From a virus: a stretch of 64,000 nt of DNA. The notes below the pieces were generated by a model that worked only from the letters and a program-made list of their open reading frames with translations, did not search any database and was not told the DNA's origin. Shown piece by piece: positions 9,105-50,536 of the stretch. Position numbers and translations under genes: made by a program. The first letter of the stretch is position 1, and every line of letters begins with the position of its first letter. The stretch lies in the IMG/VR virus record IMGVR_UViG_3300045988_149609. One strand, given 5' to 3'.

Positions 9105-9413
9105 TTAATCGTTTGATTCAACATAATATTCTTCAACTTCCCAATCTTTCAATTCTTTCATATATTGTGGAAGTACATATTGATTTTCTACAGCAGATTT
9201 TAAATCACAATTACTATAATCTATTTCTTCATAATAATTACCATCTTCATCTTTACCTGAATCAGTAACTATATAATCATCAACTTTTACTTTTACTTTT
9301 CTACTCAAAGTTATAGTAACAGTAACTTCTATTTCTTTTTCAGGATTATCTATTTGATTCCAAGGAGCGTTAGAATTATCTACTCCTAATGGATAATTAT
9401 AATTATCATACAT
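9105..9413 (-). CDS. hypothetical acidic protein
   Basis: ORF track, 102 aa, D/E/Y-rich. Confidence 0.4.
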   Translation of the reverse strand: MYDNYNYPLGVDNSNAPWNQIDNPEKEIEVTVTITLSRKVKVKVDDYIVTDSGKDEDGNYYEEIDYSNCDLKSAVENQYVLPQYMKELKDWEVEEYYVESND

Positions 9414-37642: not shown

Positions 37643-38203
37643 ATGATAGGAACGCATGATAGTTTTACTTATTTAAAAGCAAAACATAAAATATATGAAT
37701 TGTTTTCATTTTTATGGAGAACACAAACTAAATCTCTAGAAGAACAAATAGAAAATGGAGTTACCTACTTTGATATAAGAGTACATAGAACTAAAGATAA
37801 TCAATGGGAATTGTGTCATGGATTAGTAAACTTTGATAAATCCTACCAATCTTTAGCTACTCTACTCAAAGAATTAGCTAGGTTTAATATTAGATTAATT
37901 TTAGAAAAAGGTACAAAACAAGATGAAATAGAGTTTGAAAAATTGATTTATGTACTTAAATACAGATATAATAATTTAGTTTTTTCAGCTATTAAAAAGA
38001 ATTGGAAAGTATTACATAATACACATTTAGCTATTATGGATTATACTTATATTCCTTTTTATTCAGATCTTTCATTTTGGCAAAATATTAAAAGGATGAA
38101 TTGGTTTAGTACTATTAAAAAATGGGCTAAAAAACATAATCCTGTTATTACACAAGATATGAAAAATGATATTAATGTTGTTTATTTTATAGATAGATTA
38201 TAA
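37643..38203 (+). CDS. PI-PLC X-domain-like phosphodiesterase
   Basis: MIGTHDSFTY (PI-PLC IPGTHDSGT), NGVTYFDIRV (ARIFDIRGR), QWELCHGLV (VLHHGP) in the correct order. Confidence 0.6.
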   Translation: MIGTHDSFTYLKAKHKIYELFSFLWRTQTKSLEEQIENGVTYFDIRVHRTKDNQWELCHGLVNFDKSYQSLATLLKELARFNIRLILEKGTKQDEIEFEKLIYVLKYRYNNLVFSAIKKNWKVLHNTHLAIMDYTYIPFYSDLSFWQNIKRMNWFSTIKKWAKKHNPVITQDMKNDINVVYFIDRL

Positions 38204-40503
38204 TGAGTAGAACAAAAGATAATAAAACAAATAAAAATCAAAATACTTCACAAGAACAAATAAAAGAACAGGAAATGACTTTTCCTTATTATGATTGGAT
38301 AAATGGATCTTATTATCATAATAAAGAAGAGTATGATGTTCATGCTCCTAATAATATTCTTTGGAAAGAAGTTTCTCAAAAAACTTTAAATGAAGTTAAT
38401 AAAAAATATAATTTAGGATATAAAGTAGATAAAAAAGGAAATGTTGTAAGAAATAAATATACGCATTCACCAATATATGCAGATGGTCGTGAGAATTACC
38501 CAGAAGGTGAAGAATATAATAAGTTGTATGAAAATAATGTTGAAACAAATAAAAGAAGATTAGAACTTGAAAAAACAGCAAAAATAAAAACAAAATCTTC
38601 TTCAACTGTAGATCCTGGAGGAGTAAAAATAGCTGGAATAATTCAACAAATAGGAGCTACAACTCCAAATAATAATCCACAAGCAGTAGCACAAAGAAAC
38701 GCACAAGCAAAACAAAGGCAAGTACAGCAACAAACAGAAAATAAAGATTATATAGAAAATCAAAAAAAATTAGGAGAATTATTTTTAAATTCTGCAGCAC
38801 TTGCTACTTCTATTGCAGCAATGGGGTCTCAAATAGGTAGTGCTGTATATAACAATAAAGCAAATAATTTATTATTTAGACAAGGATATGCTACAGGAAT
38901 AAATAATCCAAAATATATAAACTATACAAATATTGCTAATGATTTAGATCGTATATATAAAGTAGCAGATGCTATAAATTTACCCATAGATATTGCTCAA
39001 TTTGCAACAAGTTCTGGCCCAAAAGAACAAGTTTATAATGGAATACAATTAGGGCTATCAGGTATAAAATATGTACCTATAAATAATCCTGCTTTCGGTG
39101 TAGTTAAACCTGTTACTAGTTTTGTAGGTAATTTAATGGAACCTATTTCATTAGGTTTTAAAGAAGGAGGCCCACTTAAAAAATCATACAAAGATTTTTC
39201 TACTAGATTATCTAAAGCATGGGGTAATCAAGATTTAAGTCAAGATAATTATGATTATCAAAAGTATTATAATGATGATCCAGATAGAGCTTATAGGCAA
39301 CTAGAATCTATTGAAAAAGGAGGGCAAGGCCATTTTGATGATGAGGGAAAAAGTGGCACTTATAAAACACCTAATCATGCTACTTATCCTGATTTAGGTG
39401 CTAATTCTTGGCTTGATGATGGTAGAATATTTAATATATCTGCAAGACAAGCTAATCAAGGATTAGATAATATAAGAGATGAAATAAATACAGATAGAAT
39501 ATTAGACTATTTAGGACATGATTTGAATTATAATAATGGAGCTACTAAAGTAATATATGATGGGGCATATCAATTACCTTCAGTAACAGTTGTTTCTACT
39601 CCAAAAGGTAATTATGCAAGAACAGAACTTATCCCTAATGAATTAGGTACAGGTTGGATGTATAGAGATAGAGCTGGAAGGTTTGCTAATTTTAATTATG
39701 ATTATGTAAATCGTTATGACGGAAATCAAAAAGCATTAAGTGGTAATTTATTTAGAAATGGTTCTTGGATGCCTAATAAACAATGGCGAAATAGAATTTC
39801 TGCATGGGAAGGTTCTTCAATGTATAGACCTGCACCTGATACAGGTAGAGTTAATAGTTCTTTTCAAGCAGAAGCTAGTAGATTTTTATCTGTTTTACCA
39901 AAAAAAGCATTACAGAAATTACCTGAACAAGCAATAAATGCTTTATATAGTTATAGTTATAATGTAGGTGCAGGTAACTTTAAAAAGAGAGTTGTACCTG
40001 TATTAAATAAATATCTTGATGGAAAAGCTTCTTTACAACAAGTTACAAATAGTATGTATGCTACTAAAGATTCTCAATTAAGAGGTTTACAAAAAAGAAG
40101 AAGATATGAAAGAGGAGCTTTTGAAGCAGCTATTACAGGTAAAGATTTAACAGGTACTAATGCTTATCAGCAATATGATCCATTAACAAGTAATTATCAA
40201 TCAAGTAATTCACCTGCCACTAAAAGAAGAAATATTCAATGGACAGACACAATTAATTTAAATGATGGTAGTTTAATACAACCAAATCAACAAGCTCCTT
40301 CTTTAATGCAACAATTAGCACATTCTGAAGAAATTTTAGCTGAAGCAAACAAGAGAATAAATCAAGTTACAACAAGAATGATGCCTGATGCACAAAGTAA
40401 TGATCCTTATATTAATGCTGTTTATAATTCTTCTATTCAAGATAATAGAGAACTTTTAGCAAATGATTTAAAAACATATTTAGAAACAAGTTTAAATTAT
40501 TAA
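38203..40503 (+). CDS. large virion-associated protein with possible lysozyme-like C-terminal region
   Basis: 766-aa ORF; C-terminal AWEGSSMYRPAPDTGRVNSSF...ALYSYSYNVGAGNF loosely resembles the GH24 E-x8-D-x-T pattern; weak. Confidence 0.4.
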   Translation: MSRTKDNKTNKNQNTSQEQIKEQEMTFPYYDWINGSYYHNKEEYDVHAPNNILWKEVSQKTLNEVNKKYNLGYKVDKKGNVVRNKYTHSPIYADGRENYPEGEEYNKLYENNVETNKRRLELEKTAKIKTKSSSTVDPGGVKIAGIIQQIGATTPNNNPQAVAQRNAQAKQRQVQQQTENKDYIENQKKLGELFLNSAALATSIAAMGSQIGSAVYNNKANNLLFRQGYATGINNPKYINYTNIANDLDRIYKVADAINLPIDIAQFATSSGPKEQVYNGIQLGLSGIKYVPINNPAFGVVKPVTSFVGNLMEPISLGFKEGGPLKKSYKDFSTRLSKAWGNQDLSQDNYDYQKYYNDDPDRAYRQLESIEKGGQGHFDDEGKSGTYKTPNHATYPDLGANSWLDDGRIFNISARQANQGLDNIRDEINTDRILDYLGHDLNYNNGATKVIYDGAYQLPSVTVVSTPKGNYARTELIPNELGTGWMYRDRAGRFANFNYDYVNRYDGNQKALSGNLFRNGSWMPNKQWRNRISAWEGSSMYRPAPDTGRVNSSFQAEASRFLSVLPKKALQKLPEQAINALYSYSYNVGAGNFKKRVVPVLNKYLDGKASLQQVTNSMYATKDSQLRGLQKRRRYERGAFEAAITGKDLTGTNAYQQYDPLTSNYQSSNSPATKRRNIQWTDTINLNDGSLIQPNQQAPSLMQQLAHSEEILAEANKRINQVTTRMMPDAQSNDPYINAVYNSSIQDNRELLANDLKTYLETSLNY

Positions 40504-40628
40504 TTGAAATAAATAATTTTGAAGATTATGTTGCAGCAATTACTGCTAATGCTAATCAATATTCACCAACACTTCCAAATAATCTTCAAACAGGAATTAA
40601 TACTTATGATTCTGTAAATGAATTACCT

Positions 40629-41207
40629 TTGGATAATTATTATTTTTCAGATGTACCATTAGAACAACATCCAGAAATTAATAAAAGCATAGCTAATAGT
40701 TTAGCTAATTCAGTAGTTACACCAACTACACCAGTTACAACATTACCAGAAGCAACAGTAACTGCAAAAAGAAAAAATAGATTTGTAAATGTTAAATCTA
40801 CAAATTCTAAACCTACAAGAGAAGCTTTAATGAAAAAATTAAATTCAGGAAATATTACATTTATAGATAAAAATGGTAAACAAGTAAAAGCAACAAAAGA
40901 ACAAATAGAAAAAATGAAACGTTGGGTATCTGGGCCTATGACAGGTAATCCTCCTTTAACGATAAGGGGGTTTGCATATAATATGCTACGAATTGCAGGT
41001 GCTCGAATAGCACATAAATTACCAATGATTGGAAAAATAGGATCTACAATAAAATCTGGTCTTAAAAAAGTAGAAGATATGTTACCTAAAAGATATGATA
41101 ATCCAACCCCAACAAATGGAAGATATATAAGTGCTGGTAAAAAAGGACTTAAACGTCTTTCTTCTAGTAGTAAAGCTGCTACTAGAAATGCTTTATTAAA
41201 TCCTTAA
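40629..41207 (+). CDS. hypothetical protein
   Basis: ORF track, 192 aa, basic C-terminus. Confidence 0.45.
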   Translation: MDNYYFSDVPLEQHPEINKSIANSLANSVVTPTTPVTTLPEATVTAKRKNRFVNVKSTNSKPTREALMKKLNSGNITFIDKNGKQVKATKEQIEKMKRWVSGPMTGNPPLTIRGFAYNMLRIAGARIAHKLPMIGKIGSTIKSGLKKVEDMLPKRYDNPTPTNGRYISAGKKGLKRLSSSSKAATRNALLNP

Positions 41208-41231
41208 AAAATATTAAAATTTAATTAATTG

Positions 41232-41263
41232 TTTGGTTATAAATAAATAATTAACTATCTTTG
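41232..41263 (+). promoter_or_regulatory. Bacteroidota-type sigma-A promoter (-33 TTTG at 41232-41235, -7 TATCTTTG at 41256-41263)
   Basis: TTTG, a 20-nt gap, then TAnnTTTG directly upstream of the tRNA array. Confidence 0.5.
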
Positions 41264-41371
41264 CACTGCTTCTGTGAAGAAGTAATGCAAGTTAAATGGT
41301 TATTGGGGATAGTTTATATTATCTTGAAGGTTCTAGATATAAACTTTTATGTAAGATTAAACCTTCATATT

Positions 41372-41443
41372 TGGCTAATAGTTCAATGGTTAGAACAGTA
41401 GACTGTTAATCTATTAATCTAAGTTCGATTCTTAGTGTCCCAA
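41372..41443 (+). tRNA. tRNA-like, anticodon GTT (Asn) with non-complementary acceptor stem
   Basis: Canonical D arm (GTTC/AATGGTTA/GAAC), anticodon arm GTAGA-CTGTTAA-TCTAT and T arm CTAAG-TTCGATT-CTTAG were folded by hand, but the 5' TGGCTAA and 3' TGTCCCA do not pair; may be a pseudogene or my boundary is wrong. Confidence 0.35.
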
Positions 41444-41447
41444 CAAT

Positions 41448-41525
41448 ATTTCGGTAGCTCAGATGGTTAGAGTACCAGAGAGAGAGGAACTCTGGAGGTC
41501 ATTGGTTCAAATCCAATCTGAAGTA
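41448..41525 (+). tRNA. tRNA-like element with 9-nt purine-only anticodon loop
   Basis: Acceptor ATTTCGG/CTGAAGT (2 GU wobbles), D arm GCTC-AGATGGTTA-GAGT and T arm ATTGG-TTCAAAT-CCAAT are canonical; the anticodon stem CCAGAG/CTCTGG encloses AGAGAGGAA with no U33. Confidence 0.35.
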
Positions 41526-41544
41526 TTATTTTATGAAAGGCCCA

Positions 41545-41604
41545 TAGTCCCTGAATATAAATAACTTAGCTGCAGCAATATTGTTATTATTAATTCAAAC
41601 TATG
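41545..41604 (+). repeat. tRNA-leader repeat copy 1
   Basis: Shares tagtccctga, ataact(t)agc, atattgttat and ttcaaactat blocks with copy 2 at 41784-41839; ends 7 nt before tRNA-Thr. Confidence 0.55.
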
Positions 41605-41610
41605 GGATAT

Positions 41611-41683
41611 GCTTCTATAGCTCAGTTGATAGAGCAATGGTTTTGTACTCCATGTGTCATAGGTTTGAATCCTATTAGAAGCT
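41611..41683 (+). tRNA. tRNA-Thr (anticodon TGT)
   Basis: Hand fold: perfect acceptor GCTTCTA/TAGAAGC, D arm GCTC/GAGC, anticodon loop TTTGTAC, T arm ATAGG-TTTGAAT-CCTAT. Confidence 0.75.
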
Positions 41684-41688
41684 CAAAT

Positions 41689-41761
41689 GACGCTATCTTC
41701 TAAATGGTTAGAAAACAAGATTTTCAATCTTGTAATTTGGGTTCGATTCCCAATGGCGTTA
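41689..41761 (+). tRNA. tRNA-Glu (anticodon TTC)
   Basis: Acceptor GACGCTA/TGGCGTT (2 GU), D arm TTCT/AGAA, anticodon stem CAAGA/TCTTG with loop TTTTCAA, T arm TTGGG-TTCGATT-CCCAA. Confidence 0.6.
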
Positions 41762-41783
41762 CAATTTAATATTTAATTCCTTG

Positions 41784-41839
41784 TAGTCCCTGATGTAGGA
41801 TAACTAGCCATGGTGATATTGTTATCATTTCAAACTATA
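41784..41839 (+). repeat. tRNA-leader repeat copy 2
   Basis: See copy 1; ends 8 nt before tRNA-Arg. Confidence 0.55.
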
Positions 41840-41846
41840 AGGTTAA

Positions 41847-41920
41847 GCATCAGTAGCTCAACTGAATAGAGCAACGCCCTTCTAAGGCGTGGGTTGTGAG
41901 TTTGAGTCTCACCTGATGTA
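41847..41920 (+). tRNA. tRNA-Arg (anticodon TCT)
   Basis: Acceptor GCATCAG/CTGATGT, D arm GCTC/GAGC, anticodon stem ACGCC/GGCGT with loop CTTCTAA, T arm GTGAG-TTTGAGT-CTCAC. Confidence 0.8.
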
Positions 41921-41938
41921 CTATGAAAAATTTAAACT

Positions 41939-42064
41939 ATGAAAGATTTAGACACAAATAAAAAAGAAGATTTAAAATTTCATGAATATAAAATTGTTAT
42001 AGAAGATGGAATAAATTTAGATGAATTAATACGTTTTACAAAAGAATTATTTATTAAAAAATAA
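41939..42064 (+). CDS. possible 41-aa small protein inside tRNA array
   Basis: ATG..TAA frame MKDLDTNKKEDLKFHEYKIVIEDGINLDELIRFTKELFIKK between tRNA-Arg and tRNA-Lys; below ORF-track size cutoff. Confidence 0.2.
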   Translation: MKDLDTNKKEDLKFHEYKIVIEDGINLDELIRFTKELFIKK

Positions 42065-42109
42065 ATTAATAATTATTTTTAAAGTCAGTATTTTGAATAA
42101 TACTTATTA

Positions 42110-42182
42110 GAACTGTTAGCTCAATTGGTAGAGCATCACACTTTTAATGTGAGGGTTATGGAATCGTACTCCATACAGTTCA
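42110..42182 (+). tRNA. tRNA-Lys (anticodon TTT)
   Basis: Perfect acceptor GAACTGT/ACAGTTC, D arm GCTC/GAGC, anticodon stem TCACA/TGTGA with loop CTTTTAA, T arm ATGGA-ATCGTAC-TCCAT (atypical T loop). Confidence 0.75.
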
Positions 42183-42190
42183 CAAGAATA

Positions 42191-42265
42191 GGACTCTTAG
42201 CTCAGATGGTTAGTAGCAACAAACTCATAATTTGAAGGTCATAGGTTCAAATCCTATAGAGTCCA
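42191..42265 (+). tRNA. tRNA with CAT anticodon (elongator Met or Ile2)
   Basis: Perfect acceptor GGACTCT/AGAGTCC, anticodon loop CTCATAA, T arm ATAGG-TTCAAAT-CCTAT; anticodon stem lacks the three G-C pairs of initiator tRNA. Confidence 0.7.
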
Positions 42266-42267
42266 CT

Positions 42268-42534
42268 ATGTGTTATATAGGAAAATTAATTAAAAATAAT
42301 ACAGGAGTAAGTTCAAAGAATTTCTTCTTAGTAGTAGTAACTATAATTGGTTGTATATTACTTATCATACCTGCTATTATATTAGCTATTGAAGTATTTT
42401 ATAATCATACAATTGCTACAAATTTAGATGGAATGGCAGCATATATTGCATCAGTAGCAGCAATATTTACATCTGCAGGAATTACTAAAGCTTGGTCAGA
42501 AAGATATGAAAACAATAAAACAAAAGAGAATTAA
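42268..42534 (+). CDS. small two-helix membrane protein (holin-like topology)
   Basis: Track ORF 42232..42534 begins inside the tRNA; first ATG after the tRNA is 42268 (MCYIGKL...), with two hydrophobic helices. Confidence 0.45.
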   Translation: MCYIGKLIKNNTGVSSKNFFLVVVTIIGCILLIIPAIILAIEVFYNHTIATNLDGMAAYIASVAAIFTSAGITKAWSERYENNKTKEN

Positions 42535-42820
42535 AATATTTAATACTACATATACTATTAAATATATAGATAAAATTGAAAATAACGAAAATAAATTTGT
42601 GTTTGGTAGAACAAATGCTATAGATAAACATATTTATATTGCTACTAAAAATGATAATAACAAAAAGTTATCAAATGTTGAGATAAAAACAACTCTTTAT
42701 CATGAATTAATTCATGCTATTCTTTCTGAAGGAGCTTATGGAAAAGAATCAGATAATGAACCTTTAGTAGAATGGATAGCTAAATGTTTAGTACAACTAA
42801 ATACTAATAATATAATATAA
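42506..42820 (+). CDS. small HExxH zinc-metallopeptidase-like protein
   Basis: TLYHELIHAILSEGAYG contains an HExxH motif in a 104-aa ORF. Confidence 0.45.
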   Translation: MKTIKQKRIKIFNTTYTIKYIDKIENNENKFVFGRTNAIDKHIYIATKNDNNKKLSNVEIKTTLYHELIHAILSEGAYGKESDNEPLVEWIAKCLVQLNTNNII

Positions 42821-42831
42821 TAAAATAAAAT

Positions 42832-42917
42832 GGCTTCATGGTGAAAATGGTAGACACGAAGGACTTAAAATCCTTTGGGCAGAAATGTCCGTGCGAGTTC
42901 GAGTCTCGCTGAAGCTA
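42832..42917 (+). tRNA. tRNA-Leu (anticodon TAA), class II with long variable arm
   Basis: Acceptor GGCTTCA/TGAAGCT, 3-bp D stem, anticodon stem AAGGA/TCCTT with loop CTTAAAA, 17-nt variable arm, T arm GCGAG-TTCGAGT-CTCGC. Confidence 0.8.
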
Positions 42918-42936
42918 CTTAATTAAAATAAAAAAT

Positions 42937-45536: not shown

Positions 45537-45788
45537 ATGATAATAGAAGATATTTTTAAGATAAAAGGAGAAGTAGATAAACAACATTATATTGTACATA
45601 AAACAATAACTCCAGATAAGCATTTTAAAGCAGTTAAAACATATAAAATTGATGTTTATATAACTCATGATAATATAGAACCTATTAAGAAATATAGTGT
45701 TCAAAAAATAACTAAACTAAACGATGAAGTTTGGAATGAATTAGAAAAAGAATTGCTAAAACAAATTTTTAATGAAAGAAGAGACTAA
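45537..45788 (+). CDS. hypothetical protein
   Basis: ORF track, 83 aa, overlaps TerL start. Confidence 0.4.
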   Translation: MIIEDIFKIKGEVDKQHYIVHKTITPDKHFKAVKTYKIDVYITHDNIEPIKKYSVQKITKLNDEVWNELEKELLKQIFNERRD

Positions 45789-48048
45789 TTTAAATAAACT
45801 TACAGAAGATACTATTATTCCTACAAATAAATATCAAACACCAATTACTAAACAATTATTAGAAAAATATCCACAAGAAGTACAAGAACAATTTTTAAAT
45901 TTTGTAAGAAATGTACCATATATTAAAAATTTAATATCTCCTACAAGACCTCATGCAAAAGATTGTAAAAGAGATAAAAATGGAAGAATTATTATTGATT
46001 TAACTAATCCAATATTACATGATAATATGGATTATTTTAGACCTACTGCTATTAATTATCAAAAATATGGTAAAATAAATAATCTTAGACCAAATCCTAA
46101 TCCCAATAGTGAATATGGAAAATGGATTAGAGAAGAAATAAGAAGATGTTATTATGGGTATACAAGAGAATCAGATGGTGATTTTGTTACAGGAGATATG
46201 TATTTCTTTTTAAATTATTGTCCAATTCTTTTATCTAAAATTGTAGATCAAAAGAAAGCTTTACGTGTTTGGGATTTTCCTGAATATTGGGAGGGACATA
46301 ATTTAAAATTTAATTATATAGAACAAGCTAGAAATCATGGACATCATGGTGCAGAATTAGCTTCAAGAGCAAAAGGTAAGTCATTTTCATTAGCTGCAAT
46401 GACAGCAAAAAGATTTATTTTAGGGGAATCTCCTAAAGTAAATAGAGAAGTTAAATGTTTAATTACTGCCTATCAAAAAGAATATTTAACAAAAGATGGA
46501 ATATTAAATAAGTTTCAATCATATATTGATTTTTGTGCGCAAAATACTGAATTTCCATCAAGAAGAATTAAATCTTCTTTAAATGAAATGGCATGGAAAA
46601 TGGGCTATGTTGACCTTGATACTAATACTCAAAAAGGAACTTTAAATGAAGTATTGGGTGTATCTTCAAAAGATGATGAATCAAAATTAAGAGGTAAACG
46701 TGGTGTCTTAATAGGAATTGAAGAATTTGGTTCATTTCCTAACTTATTAGGTTTATATGGTACGTTAAGACCCTCAGTAGAAGAAGGTGATCTTACTTAT
46801 GGATTAATATGGGCACAAGGTACAGCTGGTGATGATACTTCAGATTTTGCTGCAGCTCAAGAAATTATGTATAATCCTATTGGTTATAATATGGAACCTA
46901 TACCTAATGTTTATGATATTGAAGGACAAGGTAGAAAGTTTTTTACTTATTTTTTTCCTGGATATATAAACAGAAAAGGTTGTTATGATAAAGATGGAAA
47001 TAGTGATGTAGTAAAAGCACTTTTAGAAATACTTATGAATAGATATATGGTTAAGTATAATTCTACAGACATTAACGCTATTACTAAAACTATTTCTGAA
47101 ACACCTATAACTCCACAAGAAGCAATTATTAGAACAAAAGGTAATATATTTCCTGTTACTGAATTAAATAATAGATTGAATGAAATTGATAATAATCCTT
47201 CATTTTATGATCAAACTTATGTAGGAGATTTAGAATTAAATAATAAAGGAGAAGTAGAATTTGTAGCTACTAATGATAAACCTATTAGAGAATTTCCATT
47301 AAAAGATAATAATGCAAAAGGTGCTATTGAAATATTTGAAATGCCTGTTAAGATTAAAGATAAAGTACCAAATGAAAGATATATTTTATCTTTAGATAAC
47401 GTAGAAAATGATGTTGCTCAATCTATGTCATTAGGTAGTATATTAGTATTAGATCTGTGGACTGATAGAATAGTTGCTGAATATACAGGTAGACCTATGT
47501 TTGCTGATGATTTAAATGAAATAGCAAGAAAAATGTGTCTTTTTTATAATGGACGTATTATGGTAGAAAACAATAAGAAAAATACTTTTTCTTATTTCAG
47601 TAGAATGAATAGTTTACATTTAATGGCAGATTGTCCTGAATATCTTAAACAAAAGCAAATTATTAAATATAGCACATTCGGTAATAGTAGTAAAGGTATT
47701 ACAGGTACTCCAGCTATATTTAACTTTGCTTATACTTTAATTAGAGATTGGTTGCTAAAACCTATTACTATTACTAAAGAAGAAGGAGGAGAAACTATAG
47801 AATATACTGTACCAAATCTTCATTTTATTAATAATAGGGCATTACTTAAAGAGCTTGTTCTTTTTAATCCAGATATAAATGTAGATAGATTAAAATCATT
47901 GTGTCAATTAATGTTATACAGAGAAGAAAAGATGATTCTTTATCAAAACAATATAAGTAATGCTCAAAATAGAGATGATGATAAGGATTTAAGTAATGAT
48001 CCATTTTTTAAAGACAATTATGATAATAAAGAATCAATATGGGTATAA
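45772..48048 (+). CDS. terL: terminase large subunit
   Basis: Walker A-like ELASRAKGKSFSLAAM, Walker B-like VLIGIEEFG, large C-terminal nuclease-size domain; 758 aa immediately upstream of portal-size gene. Confidence 0.65.
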   Translation: MKEETNLNKLTEDTIIPTNKYQTPITKQLLEKYPQEVQEQFLNFVRNVPYIKNLISPTRPHAKDCKRDKNGRIIIDLTNPILHDNMDYFRPTAINYQKYGKINNLRPNPNPNSEYGKWIREEIRRCYYGYTRESDGDFVTGDMYFFLNYCPILLSKIVDQKKALRVWDFPEYWEGHNLKFNYIEQARNHGHHGAELASRAKGKSFSLAAMTAKRFILGESPKVNREVKCLITAYQKEYLTKDGILNKFQSYIDFCAQNTEFPSRRIKSSLNEMAWKMGYVDLDTNTQKGTLNEVLGVSSKDDESKLRGKRGVLIGIEEFGSFPNLLGLYGTLRPSVEEGDLTYGLIWAQGTAGDDTSDFAAAQEIMYNPIGYNMEPIPNVYDIEGQGRKFFTYFFPGYINRKGCYDKDGNSDVVKALLEILMNRYMVKYNSTDINAITKTISETPITPQEAIIRTKGNIFPVTELNNRLNEIDNNPSFYDQTYVGDLELNNKGEVEFVATNDKPIREFPLKDNNAKGAIEIFEMPVKIKDKVPNERYILSLDNVENDVAQSMSLGSILVLDLWTDRIVAEYTGRPMFADDLNEIARKMCLFYNGRIMVENNKKNTFSYFSRMNSLHLMADCPEYLKQKQIIKYSTFGNSSKGITGTPAIFNFAYTLIRDWLLKPITITKEEGGETIEYTVPNLHFINNRALLKELVLFNPDINVDRLKSLCQLMLYREEKMILYQNNISNAQNRDDDKDLSNDPFFKDNYDNKESIWV

Positions 48049-48121: not shown

Positions 48122-50536
48122 ATGAGTGAATTTGTACAATTTCCTCCACAGCAATTATCTTTTAATAAAAAGACTAAAGCTTGGAGAAAAACTGTATTAG
48201 ATTGGGCTGACACCAAATCATTTACTCATTATTCACCTGTAAGAAAAAGTGTATTGCATAAGAAAATCAATTATGATTTACTTAATGGTGTACTACATAT
48301 GAAAGATTTAGCTCAAATAATAAATCCTGAAGATTTAAAAGCTAAATATATTCCTGAAAAAATACAACATTTTCCTATTATAAATAGTAAATTAAATGTA
48401 TTAATAGGTGAAGAATTAGGAAGAGTTTTTGATTATAGAGTTGTAGTTACTAATCCAAATGCAGTATCAGAAATAGAGGAAAATAAGAAACAACAAGTTC
48501 TTCAACAAATACAACAAGAAATAGAAAATCAATCACAATCTCAAGAAGAATTTCAACAAAAGCTTGAGAAAATGAATGAATATTTTACATATGATTGGCA
48601 AGATATGAGAGAGCAAAGAGCTAATTATTTACTTAATCATTATGTAAAAGAATATAATATGCCACTTATATTTAATAAAGGCTTTATGGATGGTCTTGTT
48701 GTAGGTGAAGAAATTTATAGATGTGATATAAGAGGTGGAGAACCAATTATTGAAAGACTTAATCCAAACAAAGTATATGTATTTAAATCAGGTTATTCTA
48801 ATAAAATTGAAGATGCTGATGTAATAGTTATTGAAGATTATTTATCTCCTGGTCAAATTGTAGATAGATATTATGATTCTTTATCAGCAAAAGATAGAGA
48901 TTATATAGAAAAGTTACCTTATAATAATACTTCTACTCAAGGAGATGAGGAGGAACCAAGAAATGCTTGGATTTCTGCAGATTTAGTTGGAGATGATAGT
49001 AGAAATTTCTTTTCTAGTATGTTAGAATTTACTGATGGAAATACAACAGCCATTGATACTCCTTTTGATATGTATGGTAATATTAGAGTATTACAAGTAT
49101 ATTGGAAGTCAAGAAGAAAAATTAAAAAAGTAAAATCTTATAATCAAGAAACAGGTGCTGAAGAATTTAATTTTTATCCTGAAAATTATGTTTGTGATGA
49201 AGCTAAAGGTGAAGAAGAAACTACTTTTTGGATTAATGAAGCATGGGAAGGTACTAAAATAGGTAAAGATATTTATGTAAATATGAGACCTAGAGTTGTG
49301 CAATATAATAGATTGAGTAATCCTTCAAGATGTCATTTTGGTATTGTAGGTTCTATTTATAATCTTAATGAAGATAAGCCTTTCTCTTTAGTAGATGTGA
49401 TGAAACCTTTTAGTTATTTATATGATGCAATTCATGATAAACTAATAAGATTAATGTCAAGAGATTGGGGTATTCTTCTTCCTGTTGACTTAGCTAAAGT
49501 TCCTGAGCATTGGGATATAGATAAATGGCTTTATTTTGCTAAAGCAAATGGTATTTTTGTTACAGATAGTTTTAAAGAAGGTAATAAAGGTGCAGCTACA
49601 GGTAAACTTTCTGGAGCATTAAATAATGCATCAAGTGGTGCAATTAATGCAGAATTAGGTAATTCTATTCAAGCTTATATTAGTATGCTTGAATATATTA
49701 AAACTGAAATGTCTGATGTAGTTGGTATTAATAAACAACGTGAAGGACAAATTGCAAATAGAGAAACAGTAGGTGGTGTAGAAAGAGCTACTTTACAATC
49801 TTCTTATATTACTGAATATTTGTTTAATACACATGAAGATGTTAAAAGAAGAGCTATAGAATGTTTTTTAGAAACAACAAAAGCTGCTTTAAAAGGAACA
49901 AATAAAAAGTTTCAATATATATTACCTGATGGTGCTTCAAAGATATTAGATATAGATGGAGATGAATTTGCTGAAAATGATTATGGTTTAGTTGTAGATA
50001 ATAGTAAAGGTACACAAGAACTTAATCAGAAACTTGATACTCTTGCACAAGCTGCTTTACAAAATCAGTCATTAAATTTCTCTACTATTATGAAATTATA
50101 TAGTAGCGCTTCTATGGCTGAAAAAGAAAGAATGATTGCATTTAATGAACAACAATTACAACAAAGACAACAAGAGCAAATGCAACAACAGCAACAGATT
50201 CAACAACAACAGATTCAACAACAAGCTGAAACAGCTCAAGCTAAAATGGAACAAGATTATAAAATTGCACAAGAACGTAATGAAACTTCAATTGTTGTTG
50301 CTCAAATTAATGCTCAAGCTGAAGCACAACGTTATGCTTTATTAGATAATCAAAATGATGGTGTACAAGAACCTATTTTTAGTGAAGAAGCAAGAGCTAA
50401 ATTAAATGAATCTATTAGACAATTTGATGCTAAATTGAAATTAGATAAAGAGAAATTAGCATTAGATAAAACAAAAGCTAGTAGAGATTATGATATAAAA
50501 AAGAAACAATTAAAAAATAAAAATAGCAATTCATGA
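48122..50536 (+). CDS. portal protein (by size/position) with Gln-rich C-terminus
   Basis: 804-aa ORF directly after TerL; C-terminal QQQLQQRQQEQMQQQQQIQQQQIQQQ low-complexity coiled-coil. Confidence 0.55.
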   Translation: MSEFVQFPPQQLSFNKKTKAWRKTVLDWADTKSFTHYSPVRKSVLHKKINYDLLNGVLHMKDLAQIINPEDLKAKYIPEKIQHFPIINSKLNVLIGEELGRVFDYRVVVTNPNAVSEIEENKKQQVLQQIQQEIENQSQSQEEFQQKLEKMNEYFTYDWQDMREQRANYLLNHYVKEYNMPLIFNKGFMDGLVVGEEIYRCDIRGGEPIIERLNPNKVYVFKSGYSNKIEDADVIVIEDYLSPGQIVDRYYDSLSAKDRDYIEKLPYNNTSTQGDEEEPRNAWISADLVGDDSRNFFSSMLEFTDGNTTAIDTPFDMYGNIRVLQVYWKSRRKIKKVKSYNQETGAEEFNFYPENYVCDEAKGEEETTFWINEAWEGTKIGKDIYVNMRPRVVQYNRLSNPSRCHFGIVGSIYNLNEDKPFSLVDVMKPFSYLYDAIHDKLIRLMSRDWGILLPVDLAKVPEHWDIDKWLYFAKANGIFVTDSFKEGNKGAATGKLSGALNNASSGAINAELGNSIQAYISMLEYIKTEMSDVVGINKQREGQIANRETVGGVERATLQSSYITEYLFNTHEDVKRRAIECFLETTKAALKGTNKKFQYILPDGASKILDIDGDEFAENDYGLVVDNSKGTQELNQKLDTLAQAALQNQSLNFSTIMKLYSSASMAEKERMIAFNEQQLQQRQQEQMQQQQQIQQQQIQQQAETAQAKMEQDYKIAQERNETSIVVAQINAQAEAQRYALLDNQNDGVQEPIFSEEARAKLNESIRQFDAKLKLDKEKLALDKTKASRDYDIKKKQLKNKNSNS

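What the first reader, a model, noticed from the sequence alone, without database searches (positions are those of the whole stretch)
41372..41525. Two aberrant tRNA-like genes at the start of the tRNA array
Element 41448-41525 has a textbook acceptor stem, D arm and T arm. Its anticodon arm, however, is a 6-bp stem enclosing a 9-nt all-purine loop (AGAGAGGAA) with no U33.

Element 41372-41443 has canonical D, anticodon (GTT, Asn) and T arms, but its acceptor halves (TGGCTAA versus TGTCCCA) cannot pair.

These could be decaying pseudogenes, tRNA-derived regulatory RNAs or processing signals, substrates for editing, or (for the 9-nt loop) an expanded-anticodon-loop tRNA of the kind linked to frameshift suppression. 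I may also have mis-set the boundaries.
Basis: seen in the sequence. Interest (0 to 1): 0.55.

Follow-up and report, generated by a model that had tools for sequence, protein, structure and literature searches.

The report
Hybrid and anticodon-less phage tRNA genes
Both odd tRNA genes are real. One is a recent fusion of two neighbouring tRNA genes left by a 199-base deletion, and the other is a tRNA-shaped gene without a usable anticodon loop, so they reflect gene turnover in a gut-phage tRNA cluster rather than a new way of decoding.

Summary
The window comes from a low-GC crAss-like gut phage with eight tRNA genes upstream of its terminase gene. Both flagged elements are real and correctly placed (Rfam tRNA scores 58 and 49.6 bits, threshold 29).

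**Element 41372-41443** is a hybrid. It has the body of tRNA-Asn(GUU) joined to the 3' acceptor strand of tRNA-Gln(UUG).
- A 99.3-99.9% identical sister contig (L051) and every other related contig outside this lineage carry intact Asn and Gln genes.
- In L051 their T arms form 22-nt identical direct repeats 199 nt apart. The window keeps one copy, at 41415-41436.
- Three acceptor pairs are mismatched, and the Asn discriminator G73 is replaced by A.

**Element 41448-41525** has an intact cloverleaf and all tertiary-contact bases, but its anticodon arm is a 6-bp stem with an all-purine loop.
- Relatives carry the same gene with a 7-nt loop (AAAGGAA). The window's 9-nt loop adds two bases within an (AG)5 run.
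- One relative has a genuine tRNA-Thr(UGU) in this slot, and 23 of 31 related contigs lack the slot.
- With no U33 and a loop whose length varies, it is not a decoder. It is most likely a decaying redundant tRNA copy, though a non-decoding role is not excluded.

Interest is modest.

The parts
41232..41263 (+). Match to the Bacteroidetes-type promoter pattern (TTTG-N20-TATCTTTG) in the conserved leader upstream of the array; the likely start of a polycistronic tRNA precursor.
   Evidence: Pattern match. The motif count across the window is not above chance (4 found against 2.8 expected). The leader is almost invariant in relatives. The consensus itself is taken from memory.
41372..41443 (+). 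Hybrid tRNA gene: tRNA-Asn(GUU) body plus the tRNA-Gln 3' acceptor strand and discriminator. Acceptor pairs 4-69, 5-68 and 6-67 are mismatched.
   Evidence: 58 bits, mismatches flagged; comparison with relatives; folding.
41372..41414 (+). Asn-derived part: 5' acceptor strand, D arm and anticodon arm with loop CTGTTAA.
   Evidence: Identical to the intact tRNA-Asn of L051, L024 and L013.
41415..41436 (+). Recombination joint: the single remaining copy of the 22-nt repeat TAATCTAAGTTCGATTCTTAGT (variable loop, T arm and base 66). Intact relatives have it in both tRNA-Asn and tRNA-Gln.
   Evidence: Both BLAST blocks of L051 end or start on this segment. The two copies in L051 lie 199 nt apart.
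41437..41443 (+). Gln-derived 3' acceptor strand (GTCCCA) and discriminator A.
   Evidence: Identical to the 3' end of tRNA-Gln(ttg) in relatives.
41448..41525 (+). tRNA-shaped gene with an intact acceptor stem (two G.U pairs), D arm, 5-nt variable loop and T arm, but a non-canonical anticodon arm. Not a decoder.
   Evidence: 49.6 bits; 11 nt where the model expects 7; alleles in relatives.
41475..41495 (+). Anticodon arm: 6-bp stem CCAGAG/CTCTGG around the 9-nt all-purine loop AGAGAGGAA (41481-41489).
   Evidence: Sequence. It occurs once in the window. The 7-nt-loop allele AAAGGAA is in L022, L024 and L045.
41477..41486 (+). (AG)5 dinucleotide run spanning the 5' stem strand and the loop. 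It is the probable substrate for the 2-nt length change, and it lets the stem slide in register.
   Evidence: Read from the sequence. ARAGORN's alternative register uses it. Allele comparison.
41526..41610 (+). Trailer plus structured element E1 (closing stem CCCATAG 41541-41547 / CTATGGG 41600-41606). It always accompanies the slot tRNA as one insertion/deletion unit.
   Evidence: Co-occurrence; folding; no Rfam match.
41611..41683 (+). Canonical tRNA-Thr(UGU), the copy that makes a Thr(UGU) gene in the upstream slot redundant.
   Evidence: 64.2 bits; present in all related arrays.

Best explanation
Both elements are by-products of rapid recombination and decay in a plastic phage tRNA array. 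Neither is a new kind of decoder.

**(i) 41372-41443 is a hybrid gene.** The ancestor had tRNA-Asn(GUU), a ~125-nt spacer and tRNA-Gln(UUG). The two are paralogues whose variable loop and T arm are identical over 22 nt. Recombination or replication slippage between these direct repeats removed 199 nt. This joined the Asn body to the Gln 3' acceptor strand (shown). The product has a 3x3 internal loop in its acceptor stem and A73 in place of the G73 of intact tRNA-Asn. It is therefore expected to be poorly processed, charged and delivered, so this lineage has in effect lost both tRNAs (inferred).

**(ii) 41448-41525 sits in an optional slot between Gln and Thr.**
- In one relative the slot holds a genuine tRNA-Thr(UGU), which duplicates the Thr(UGU) gene 85 nt downstream.
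- In the window's allele the D loop and the whole anticodon arm are different: a 6-bp stem with a purine-only loop.
- The loop is 7 nt (AAAGGAA) in some relatives and 9 nt (AGAGAGGAA) here. The difference lies within an (AG)n run (shown), and slippage is the likely cause (inferred).
- With no U33, no pyrimidine and a variable loop length, it cannot present an anticodon.
- It is probably still transcribed with the array and cut out by RNase P and RNase Z, because the acceptor and T arms and the tertiary-contact bases are intact (inferred).
- It is most likely a decaying redundant copy that takes no part in translation.
For: **Hybrid gene**
- Of 31 distinct related contigs that carry the Asn body, only the window lineage lacks the Asn 3' strand TTAGCCA and the Gln body. 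That lineage is the window (whose source contig was fetched again as L012/L046), L017 and L018.
- L051 comes from a sister sample and is 99.3% and 99.87% identical on the two sides. Its two BLAST blocks overlap on window 41415-41436. The 22-nt repeats lie 199 nt apart in L051.
- The cloverleaf energy falls from -15.0 to -5.6 kcal/mol, and the minimum-energy fold is no longer a cloverleaf.
- The Rfam score falls from 71.3 to 58 bits.
- The same junction appears in contigs named in three different styles, which suggests different assembly pipelines.
- Intact tRNA-Asn is under structural selection: L062 has a compensatory T-stem change.

**Odd tRNA**
- Four alleles are listed: a 76-nt form with a 7-nt loop (L022, L024, L045), a 78-nt form with a 9-nt loop (L051), the same with C2>T (window lineage), and a true Thr(tgt) with the same acceptor and T arm (L013; 66.5 bits).
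- The slot is absent from 23 of 31 contigs.
- Against L024, the odd tRNA shows 3 substitutions plus one indel in 78 nt, compared with 1 in 284 nt for the neighbouring tRNAs. Fisher p = 0.008.
- Relative to the Thr allele, the stem differences are all Watson-Crick to G.U: positions 6 and 25 in every odd allele, and position 2 in the window lineage.
- The complement of the loop is not enriched in the window.
Against: - No expression, processing or charging data exist for either gene, so 'non-functional' is inferred.
- The odd tRNA keeps U8, A14, G18-G19, G15-C48, C13-G22-G46, U12-A23-A9, T54-A58, C56 and G53-C61, and a perfect 6-bp stem in both loop alleles.
- All its observed substitutions are structure-neutral. 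Random decay would be expected to break pairs sooner. This hints at continuing selection on the tRNA shape, although only 3 stem changes are available (p about 0.125 at best).
- Its higher divergence could reflect a mosaic history, since its 3' half matches the L013 haplotype, rather than relaxed constraint.
- The direction of change between the Thr allele and the odd allele is not proven.
- The donor or mechanism that produced the purine-loop hairpin is unknown.
- The hybrid lineage was recovered from more than one sample, so the deletion is at least tolerated.
Confidence: 0.75

Rival explanations
1. The odd tRNA (41448-41525) is a functional non-decoding tRNA-like RNA. It could be a processing handle whose RNase P and RNase Z cleavages release the downstream structured element E1. 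It could instead be a decoy or binding partner, for example for a host tRNA-targeting nuclease or a phage RNA enzyme, with the purine loop (core AGGAA) as the recognition site.
For: The cloverleaf and all tertiary-contact bases are intact, and the 6-bp stem is perfect in both loop alleles. All substitutions among alleles are structure-neutral. The slot tRNA and E1 are always gained or lost together. The gene persists in at least four allelic or lineage contexts from different samples.
Against: The second copy of the element (E2) follows an ordinary tRNA-Glu, and in L013 E1 follows an ordinary tRNA-Thr, so no special tRNA is needed for processing. The module is absent from 23 of 31 related contigs. 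Loop length and sequence vary between near-identical relatives. No complementary target is enriched in the window. No homologue was found outside this small lineage.
Confidence: 0.2
2. The 9-nt loop makes element 2 an expanded-anticodon-loop tRNA that reads four- or five-base codons, or promotes frameshifting, during phage translation.
For: The loop is enlarged (9 nt) on an otherwise well-formed tRNA body. Natural tRNAs with 8-nt loops exist, for example yeast mitochondrial tRNA-Thr(UAG) (PMC7609411). Phage tRNAs with enlarged loops have been reported (my recollection of Pope et al. 2014, which could not be read here).
Against: There is no U33, no pyrimidine at position 32, and no pyrimidine anywhere in the loop. 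Close relatives have a 7-nt purine loop on the same 6-bp stem, so the enlargement is a recent repeat change and not a conserved feature. The arm is not a one-base insertion into a normal isoacceptor; it is entirely different from the Thr allele. ARAGORN obtains 'Pro(agg)' only by distorting the D and anticodon stems.
Confidence: 0.03
3. The mismatched acceptor stem of element 1 is an assembly artefact: the two tRNA genes were collapsed across their shared 22-nt repeat.
For: The junction lies exactly in a repeat. A sister sample from the same cohort carries the undeleted form.
Against: A 22-nt repeat is far shorter than the k-mer value shown in the contig name of L018 (k127). The identical junction occurs in the 101.6-kb source scaffold, a 'NODE_'-style contig (L017) and a 'k127'-style contig (L018) from different accessions. 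The hybrid lineage also carries its own linked substitution at 41449.
Confidence: 0.03

Closest known systems
Hybrid or partial tRNA genes made by recombination between similar tRNA genes (tRNA gene fragments and chimeras in prokaryotic annotations, e.g. PMC9897764)
   Same: Two neighbouring paralogous tRNA genes recombined across an identical segment. The product still scores as a tRNA with standard tools, but its acceptor stem no longer pairs.
   Different: Both parents, the 22-nt crossover segment and the 199-nt deleted piece can be read directly from a 99%-identical sister genome. The event lies inside a phage tRNA array, not at an integration site.
tRNA pseudogenes and non-expressed members of tRNA arrays (for example, 3 of 26 genes in the Anabaena trn operon, PMC8421152)
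   Same: A tRNA-shaped gene inside a co-transcribed array that lacks features needed for decoding. It duplicates another gene (Thr UGU) and is patchily present among relatives.
   Different: The body is unusually well preserved, and the whole anticodon arm is a clean 6-bp hairpin with a purine-only loop rather than scattered damage. Expression is untested.
tRNAs with 6-bp anticodon stems (tRNA-Pyl, tRNA-Sec, mitochondrial tRNA-Ser(UCN); PMC7609411)
   Same: A 6-bp anticodon stem on an L-shape-compatible body.
   Different: Those tRNAs have a 7-nt loop with U33 and a defined anticodon. They also have compensating changes: a 3-nt variable loop, a single connector base, a small D loop, or the long variable arm and acceptor stem of tRNA-Sec. 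The element here has a normal 2-nt connector, a 9-nt D loop, a 5-nt variable loop and no usable anticodon.
Expanded-anticodon-loop (frameshift-suppressor, quadruplet-decoding) tRNAs
   Same: A loop longer than 7 nt.
   Different: Those arise by adding a base to a normal loop and they keep U33 and purine 37. Here the loop is all purine, varies between 7 and 9 nt among close relatives, and sits on a lengthened stem.
tRNA-associated theta (minimal HDV-like) ribozymes of gut phages (PMC10879173)
   Same: Short structured elements immediately downstream of tRNAs in arrays of gut phages; here the host phylum (Bacteroidota) is inferred only from a promoter-pattern match.
   Different: The elements here (E1, E2) start 15-17 nt after the tRNA rather than within 5 nt. 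They are closed by one terminal stem, not a nested double pseudoknot. They match no HDV-like or other ribozyme family in Rfam even at E<=10.

Membership tests
Canonical elongator tRNA (Rfam RF00005) | Covariance-model score above the gathering threshold over the full model | tested here: met
   58.0 bits (41372-41443) and 49.6 bits (41448-41525) against 29, model positions 1-71.
Canonical elongator tRNA (Rfam RF00005) | Seven-pair acceptor stem | tested here: not met
   Element 1 forms only 4 of 7 pairs; 4-69 C.C, 5-68 U.U and 6-67 A.G are mismatched. Its cloverleaf energy is -5.6 against -15.0 kcal/mol for the intact gene. Element 2 meets this feature with 7 pairs, two of them G.U.
Canonical elongator tRNA (Rfam RF00005) | 5-bp anticodon stem with a 7-nt loop carrying U33 and purine 37 | tested here: not met
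   Element 2 has a 6-bp stem with the 9-nt loop AGAGAGGAA (7-nt AAAGGAA in relatives) and no pyrimidine. Element 1 meets this feature with loop CTGTTAA.
Canonical elongator tRNA (Rfam RF00005) | Bases for tertiary contacts (U8, A14, G18-G19, R15-Y48, T54-A58, C56, G53-C61) | tested here: met
   Read directly from the sequence for both elements.
Deletion-generated hybrid of two tRNA genes | Both parental genes are intact and adjacent in close relatives | tested here: met
   28 of 31 related contigs carry intact Asn and Gln. L051 is 99.3-99.9% identical in the flanks.
Deletion-generated hybrid of two tRNA genes | The junction falls inside a sequence shared by the two parents, and the intervening DNA is missing | tested here: met
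   The 22-nt repeat is retained once at 41415-41436, and 199 nt are absent relative to L051.
Deletion-generated hybrid of two tRNA genes | The junction is reproducible in independent data (not an assembly artefact) | tested here: met
   The same junction is in the source scaffold (L012/L046), L017 and L018, from different accessions and contig-naming styles. Read-level support could not be checked.
Expanded-anticodon-loop frameshift-suppressor tRNA | An enlarged loop that keeps U33 and a readable anticodon, derived from a normal isoacceptor by insertion | tested here: not met
   The loop is all purine. The whole arm differs from the Thr allele in the same slot.
Expanded-anticodon-loop frameshift-suppressor tRNA | The enlarged loop is conserved among relatives | tested here: not met
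   7 nt in L022, L024 and L045; 9 nt in L051 and the window lineage.
Expanded-anticodon-loop frameshift-suppressor tRNA | Cognate frameshift or quadruplet sites in the genome and aminoacylation of the tRNA | not testable with these tools
   This needs proteomics, ribosome profiling and charging assays.
tRNA-Pyl / mitochondrial tRNA-Ser(UCN) type (6-bp anticodon stem) | A 6-bp anticodon stem together with a 3-nt variable loop, a single connector base and a small D loop | tested here: not met
   The stem has 6 bp, but the variable loop is 5 nt (AGGTC), the connector is 2 nt (TA) and the D loop is 9 nt. Family features are taken from PMC7609411.
tRNA pseudogene | Loss of an essential decoding feature, redundancy, and patchy presence among relatives | tested here: met
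   There is no usable anticodon loop. Thr(UGU) is also encoded 85 nt downstream. The slot is present in 8 of 31 contigs.
tRNA pseudogene | Faster sequence change than functional neighbours | tested here: inconclusive
   4 events in 78 nt against 1 in 284 nt, compared with L024 (p = 0.008). However, the region is mosaic and all changes are structure-neutral.
tRNA pseudogene | No mature, charged RNA product | not testable with these tools
   No transcript data are available.
Theta / HDV-like ribozyme (for the neighbouring element E1) | Cleavage site within 5 nt of the tRNA 3' end and a nested double-pseudoknot fold | tested here: not met
   The closing stem starts 15 nt after the tRNA. No HDV-like hit appears at E<=10. 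The predicted fold is a single closed stem-loop structure. The criteria come from PMC10879173.

The most novel reading that the evidence does not exclude
The tRNA-shaped gene at 41448-41525 may be a selected, non-decoding tRNA mimic of crAss-like phages. On this reading its intact L-shape recruits host tRNA-processing or tRNA-targeting factors, while the purine-only loop (core AGGAA) on a lengthened stem makes it invisible to the ribosome. It would act as a decoy or processing handle linked to the uncharacterised structured RNA that always follows it.
Probability: 0.2. Interest if true: 0.55.

Novelty: new member of a known kind. Interest (0 to 1): 0.3.

Why it matters
The locus gives a base-by-base view of how phage tRNA arrays change. 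Identical arms of paralogous tRNA genes act as deletion substrates. One event can remove two tRNAs and leave a hybrid that standard tools still annotate as a normal tRNA-Asn.

It also carries a warning for annotation. ARAGORN labels an anticodon-less tRNA-shaped gene 'tRNA-Pro(AGG)'. Anyone inferring codon-usage adaptation or recoding from phage tRNA lists would count two tRNAs here that probably do not decode.

The biological stakes are otherwise small. That would change only if the tRNA-shaped gene, or the structured elements between the tRNAs, turn out to have a function of their own.

Tried and rejected
**Collection scans for the odd anticodon arm or the slot tRNA**
- IMG/VR found only a GC-rich chance match (L001) or nothing.
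- GTDB genomes gave nothing.

**Other searches for relatives**
- The conserved leader is not in IMG/VR.
- IMG/VR relatives found through the terminase (L002-L009, 65-76% identical protein) have arrays in the same position but are too diverged. Only the L007 tRNA-Asn was informative, with a perfect acceptor stem.
- GenBank phages contain no close relative. The best matches to the odd tRNA are unrelated phage tRNA-Phe genes that share only generic tRNA features. The idea that it derives from tRNA-Phe was dropped.

**Tests of a function or family**
- The complement of the purine loop is not enriched in the window: 15 matches against 13.8 expected.
- The inter-tRNA elements match no Rfam family, ribozymes included.
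- Hand-threading them onto hammerhead or HDV-like cores failed.
- An IMG/VR scan for their conserved core gave only chance hits in coding regions.

**Literature**
- Searches for phage tRNAs with enlarged or purine-only loops found no description of this gene.
- Pope et al. 2014 could not be read.

**Promoter and terminator scan**
- The sigma-70 promoter scan is uninformative for a Bacteroidetes-type host.

Full report
**Context**

The window has about 25% G+C. It encodes a 758-aa protein that I take to be the crAss-type large terminase (45772-48048); the assignment rests on recollection and on its position, not on a domain hit. The next gene (48122-50536) carries a weak P22-type portal domain hit.

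An exact-protein look-up places the window on a 101.6-kb gut-metagenome scaffold, ENA ERZ28573143, BRIT16-1 SAMN02334023 scaffold_73.

Eight tRNA genes lie on the + strand at 41371-42918, in the order Asn, the odd gene, Thr, Glu, Arg, Lys, Met, Leu. A 164-nt leader precedes them. It is almost invariant among relatives, although the upstream protein gene is only 57-64% identical. The leader contains a match to the Bacteroidetes-type promoter pattern at 41232-41263. That motif is not enriched across the window, and I recalled the consensus from memory. None of the tRNAs encodes CCA.

**Check of the observation**

The second element is as described: a 6-bp stem CCAGAG/CTCTGG and the 9-nt loop AGAGAGGAA, with no pyrimidine.

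For the first element, four acceptor pairs can form (1-72, 2-71, 3-70 and 7-66). The three central pairs are mismatched. The boundaries are right. ARAGORN fits both genes only by shifting a stem: the acceptor stem of element 1 by one base, and the D and anticodon stems of element 2.

**Finding relatives**

IMG/VR, GenBank phages and the GTDB genomes do not contain this lineage.

Relatives came from three sources:
- homologues of the two small ORFs that flank or sit inside the array
- exact-protein look-ups in ENA and Logan assemblies
- one metagenome pattern scan

Together these give 31 distinct contigs that carry the same tRNA-Asn body.

**Element 1 (41372-41443) is an Asn/Gln hybrid left by a deletion**

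In every relative outside the window's own lineage, tRNA-Asn(gtt) has a perfect acceptor stem, TGGCTAA/TTAGCCA, with discriminator G. It is followed by a spacer and then by tRNA-Gln(ttg), TGGGATA.../TGTCCCA plus A. The spacer is about 125 nt, or 7 nt in L022.

The two genes are paralogues. Their variable loop, T arm and base 66 are identical over 22 nt: TAATCTAAGTTCGATTCTTAGT.

The window has the Asn sequence up to this segment and the Gln sequence after it.

L051 comes from a sister sample of the same cohort and is 99.3% and 99.87% identical on the two sides. Its two alignment blocks overlap exactly on window 41415-41436. Its two repeat copies are 199 nt apart. The window therefore lacks 199 nt: the Asn 3' strand, the spacer and the first 50 nt of Gln.

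Consequences for the RNA:
- The canonical cloverleaf is worth -5.6 kcal/mol, against -15.0 for the intact gene.
- The minimum-energy fold is not a cloverleaf.
- The Rfam score drops from 71.3 to 58 bits.
- The discriminator changes from G to A. In E. coli, G73 and the anticodon are the identity elements for asparaginyl-tRNA synthetase (my recollection of the identity-rule literature, not tested here).

I infer that the hybrid is poorly processed and charged, and that this lineage has in effect lost both tRNA-Asn and tRNA-Gln.

The junction is not an assembly artefact:
- It recurs in three contigs with different accessions and naming styles.
- The repeat is much shorter than the k-mer value shown in the name of one of those contigs (k127).
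- The lineage carries its own linked substitution at 41449.

Intact tRNA-Asn is under structural selection elsewhere. L062 has a compensatory U-A to A-U change in the T stem.

**Element 2 (41448-41525) is an anticodon-less allele of an optional tRNA slot**

The slot lies between tRNA-Gln and the canonical tRNA-Thr(UGU). It is always accompanied by an 85-nt trailer that contains a structured element, E1. The two are gained or lost together: 8 contigs have the module and 23 go straight from Gln to Thr.

Four alleles exist:

| Allele | Contigs | Length | Distinguishing features |
|---|---|---|---|
| A | L022, L024 (= L050), L045 | 76 nt | acceptor ACTTCGG; arm CCAGAG-AAAGGAA-CTCTGG; variable loop AAGTC; T loop TTCAAGT |
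| B | L051 | 78 nt | loop AGAGAGGAA; variable loop AGGTC; T loop TTCAAAT |
| C | window lineage | 78 nt | allele B plus C2>T |
| D | L013 | 71 nt | genuine tRNA-Thr(tgt), 66.5 bits; perfect acceptor ACTTCAG/CTGAAGT, same T arm and trailer; normal D loop and arm CGATA-TTTGTAA-TATCG |

What this shows:
- The unusual feature is a 6-bp stem with a purine-only loop. The 9-nt length is a secondary change within an (AG)n run at 41477-41486.
- The loop has no U33 or any other pyrimidine, and its length is not conserved. Decoding, including four- or five-base decoding, is therefore very unlikely.
- ARAGORN's 'Pro(agg)' call is a forced fit.

The acceptor stem goes from all Watson-Crick pairs (allele D) to one G.U pair (alleles A and B) to two (allele C), and G10-C25 becomes G10.U25. 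These three changes all weaken pairs and none is compensatory.

Against L024, the gene has 3 substitutions and an indel in 78 nt. The four neighbouring tRNAs together have 1 in 284 nt (Fisher p = 0.008).

A Thr(UGU) gene in this slot would duplicate the Thr(UGU) gene 85 nt downstream. All this fits a redundant copy that lost its anticodon arm and is drifting.

**What argues for caution**

The body of element 2 is very well kept. U8, A14, G18-G19, G15-C48, the 13-22-46 and 12-23-9 triples, T54-A58, C56 and G53-C61 are all present. The 6-bp stem is perfect in both loop alleles, and no observed substitution breaks a pair.

The arm differs from the Thr allele as a block, not by scattered mutations, and I could not find its source. 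Its 3' half and trailer match the L013 haplotype, so part of its apparent divergence may come from recombination.

A non-decoding role therefore stays open at roughly 20%. It could be a processing handle for E1, or a decoy or binding RNA.

Three points count against that role:
- E1 follows a normal tRNA in L013, and its paralogue E2 follows a normal tRNA-Glu.
- Most relatives lack the module.
- No complementary target is enriched.

**Comparison with known kinds**

- Element 1 belongs with recombination-generated hybrid or partial tRNA genes that annotation tools still call as tRNAs (compare PMC9897764). All three defining features were tested and met.
- Element 2 fails the tests for a canonical decoder, for expanded-loop suppressor tRNAs, and for the 6-bp-stem families tRNA-Pyl and mitochondrial tRNA-Ser(UCN) (features from PMC7609411). 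It fits a tRNA pseudogene on three of five criteria. One criterion is inconclusive and one is untestable here.
- The neighbouring E1 and E2 elements are not theta (HDV-like) ribozymes by position, fold or Rfam search (PMC10879173).

**Verdict**

Of the interpretations offered, 'decaying pseudogenes' is closest to the evidence and 'expanded-anticodon-loop decoder' is not supported.

Element 1 is explained with high confidence (about 0.95). Element 2 is explained as a non-decoder with good confidence (about 0.9) and as non-functional with moderate confidence (about 0.65).

Novelty is low: these are new examples of known kinds. Interest is 0.3. The value lies mainly in a clean illustration of tRNA-array turnover and in a caution against taking automated phage tRNA calls at face value.

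Noticed in passing
window 41541-41606 (E1) and 41779-41842 (E2): Two paralogous ~65-nt structured elements lie between tRNAs. They share the core TAGTCCCTGA..ATAAC..TAGC, then a 6-nt palindrome (CTGCAG or CCATGG), then ATATTGTTAT..TTCAAACTAT. Each is closed by a 7-9 bp stem that differs between the copies by compensatory changes. No Rfam family matches even at E<=10, and the elements do not fit theta/HDV-like or hammerhead cores. They could be an undescribed small RNA or processing element.
   Followed up: partly
L013 9278-9362, L020 and L022 7213-7297 (the position of E2): Some relatives carry a different 106-nt insert in the E2 position, with the same closing stem (CCTTATAA.../...TTATAAGG). 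This suggests interchangeable cassettes between tRNA-Glu and tRNA-Arg.
   Followed up: no
L024 11762-11887, and the equivalent position in about 27 relatives; deleted in the window: A conserved ~125-nt spacer lies between tRNA-Asn and tRNA-Gln, with variable and conserved blocks. It is cut to 7 nt in L022. It matches no Rfam family, and the single-sequence fold is no better than shuffled sequence (z = -0.05).
   Followed up: partly
window 41208-41371: The leader upstream of the array is almost 100% conserved among relatives whose adjacent 192-aa ORF is only 57-64% identical, so the region is mosaic. It contains two inverted-repeat (hairpin-like) segments and a match to the Bacteroidetes-type promoter pattern at 41232-41263.
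   Followed up: partly
L013 ~9240-9260; L037 (Glu-Arg interval): There are further recombination scars in related arrays. tRNA-Glu is deleted in L013, leaving only its last 13 nt. A 28-nt deletion in L037 removes the Glu discriminator and the 5' strand of E2.
   Followed up: partly
window 41921-42109 and 42267-42831, compared with L013, L014, L020, L027, L036, L037, L045: Relatives carry HNH, GIY-YIG or sulfotransferase-like ORFs inserted between tRNA genes (Arg-Lys, or after the 104-aa ORF). The window lacks these, so the array is an insertion hotspot. A 41-42-aa ORF between Arg and Lys (window 41934-42062) is called in most relatives.
   Followed up: no
window 41712 (tRNA-Glu D stem): This is one of only two substitutions between the window and L051 in the 1486 nt downstream of the deletion joint. 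It is a G>A change that turns a U.G pair in the tRNA-Glu D stem into U-A. The other substitution, at 41449, turns C-G into U.G in the odd tRNA.
   Followed up: yes
window 38203-41207, compared with relatives: The lysozyme-like 766-aa gene, a LysM-domain gene and the 192-aa ORF are variously separate or fused in relatives, giving called products of 754, 967, 1353, 1447 and 1666 aa. The window has no LysM gene between them.
   Followed up: no
L031 (the tRNA in the Met(cat) position): ARAGORN calls Ile(gat) where every other array has Met(cat). This may be an anticodon switch or a replaced gene.
   Followed up: no
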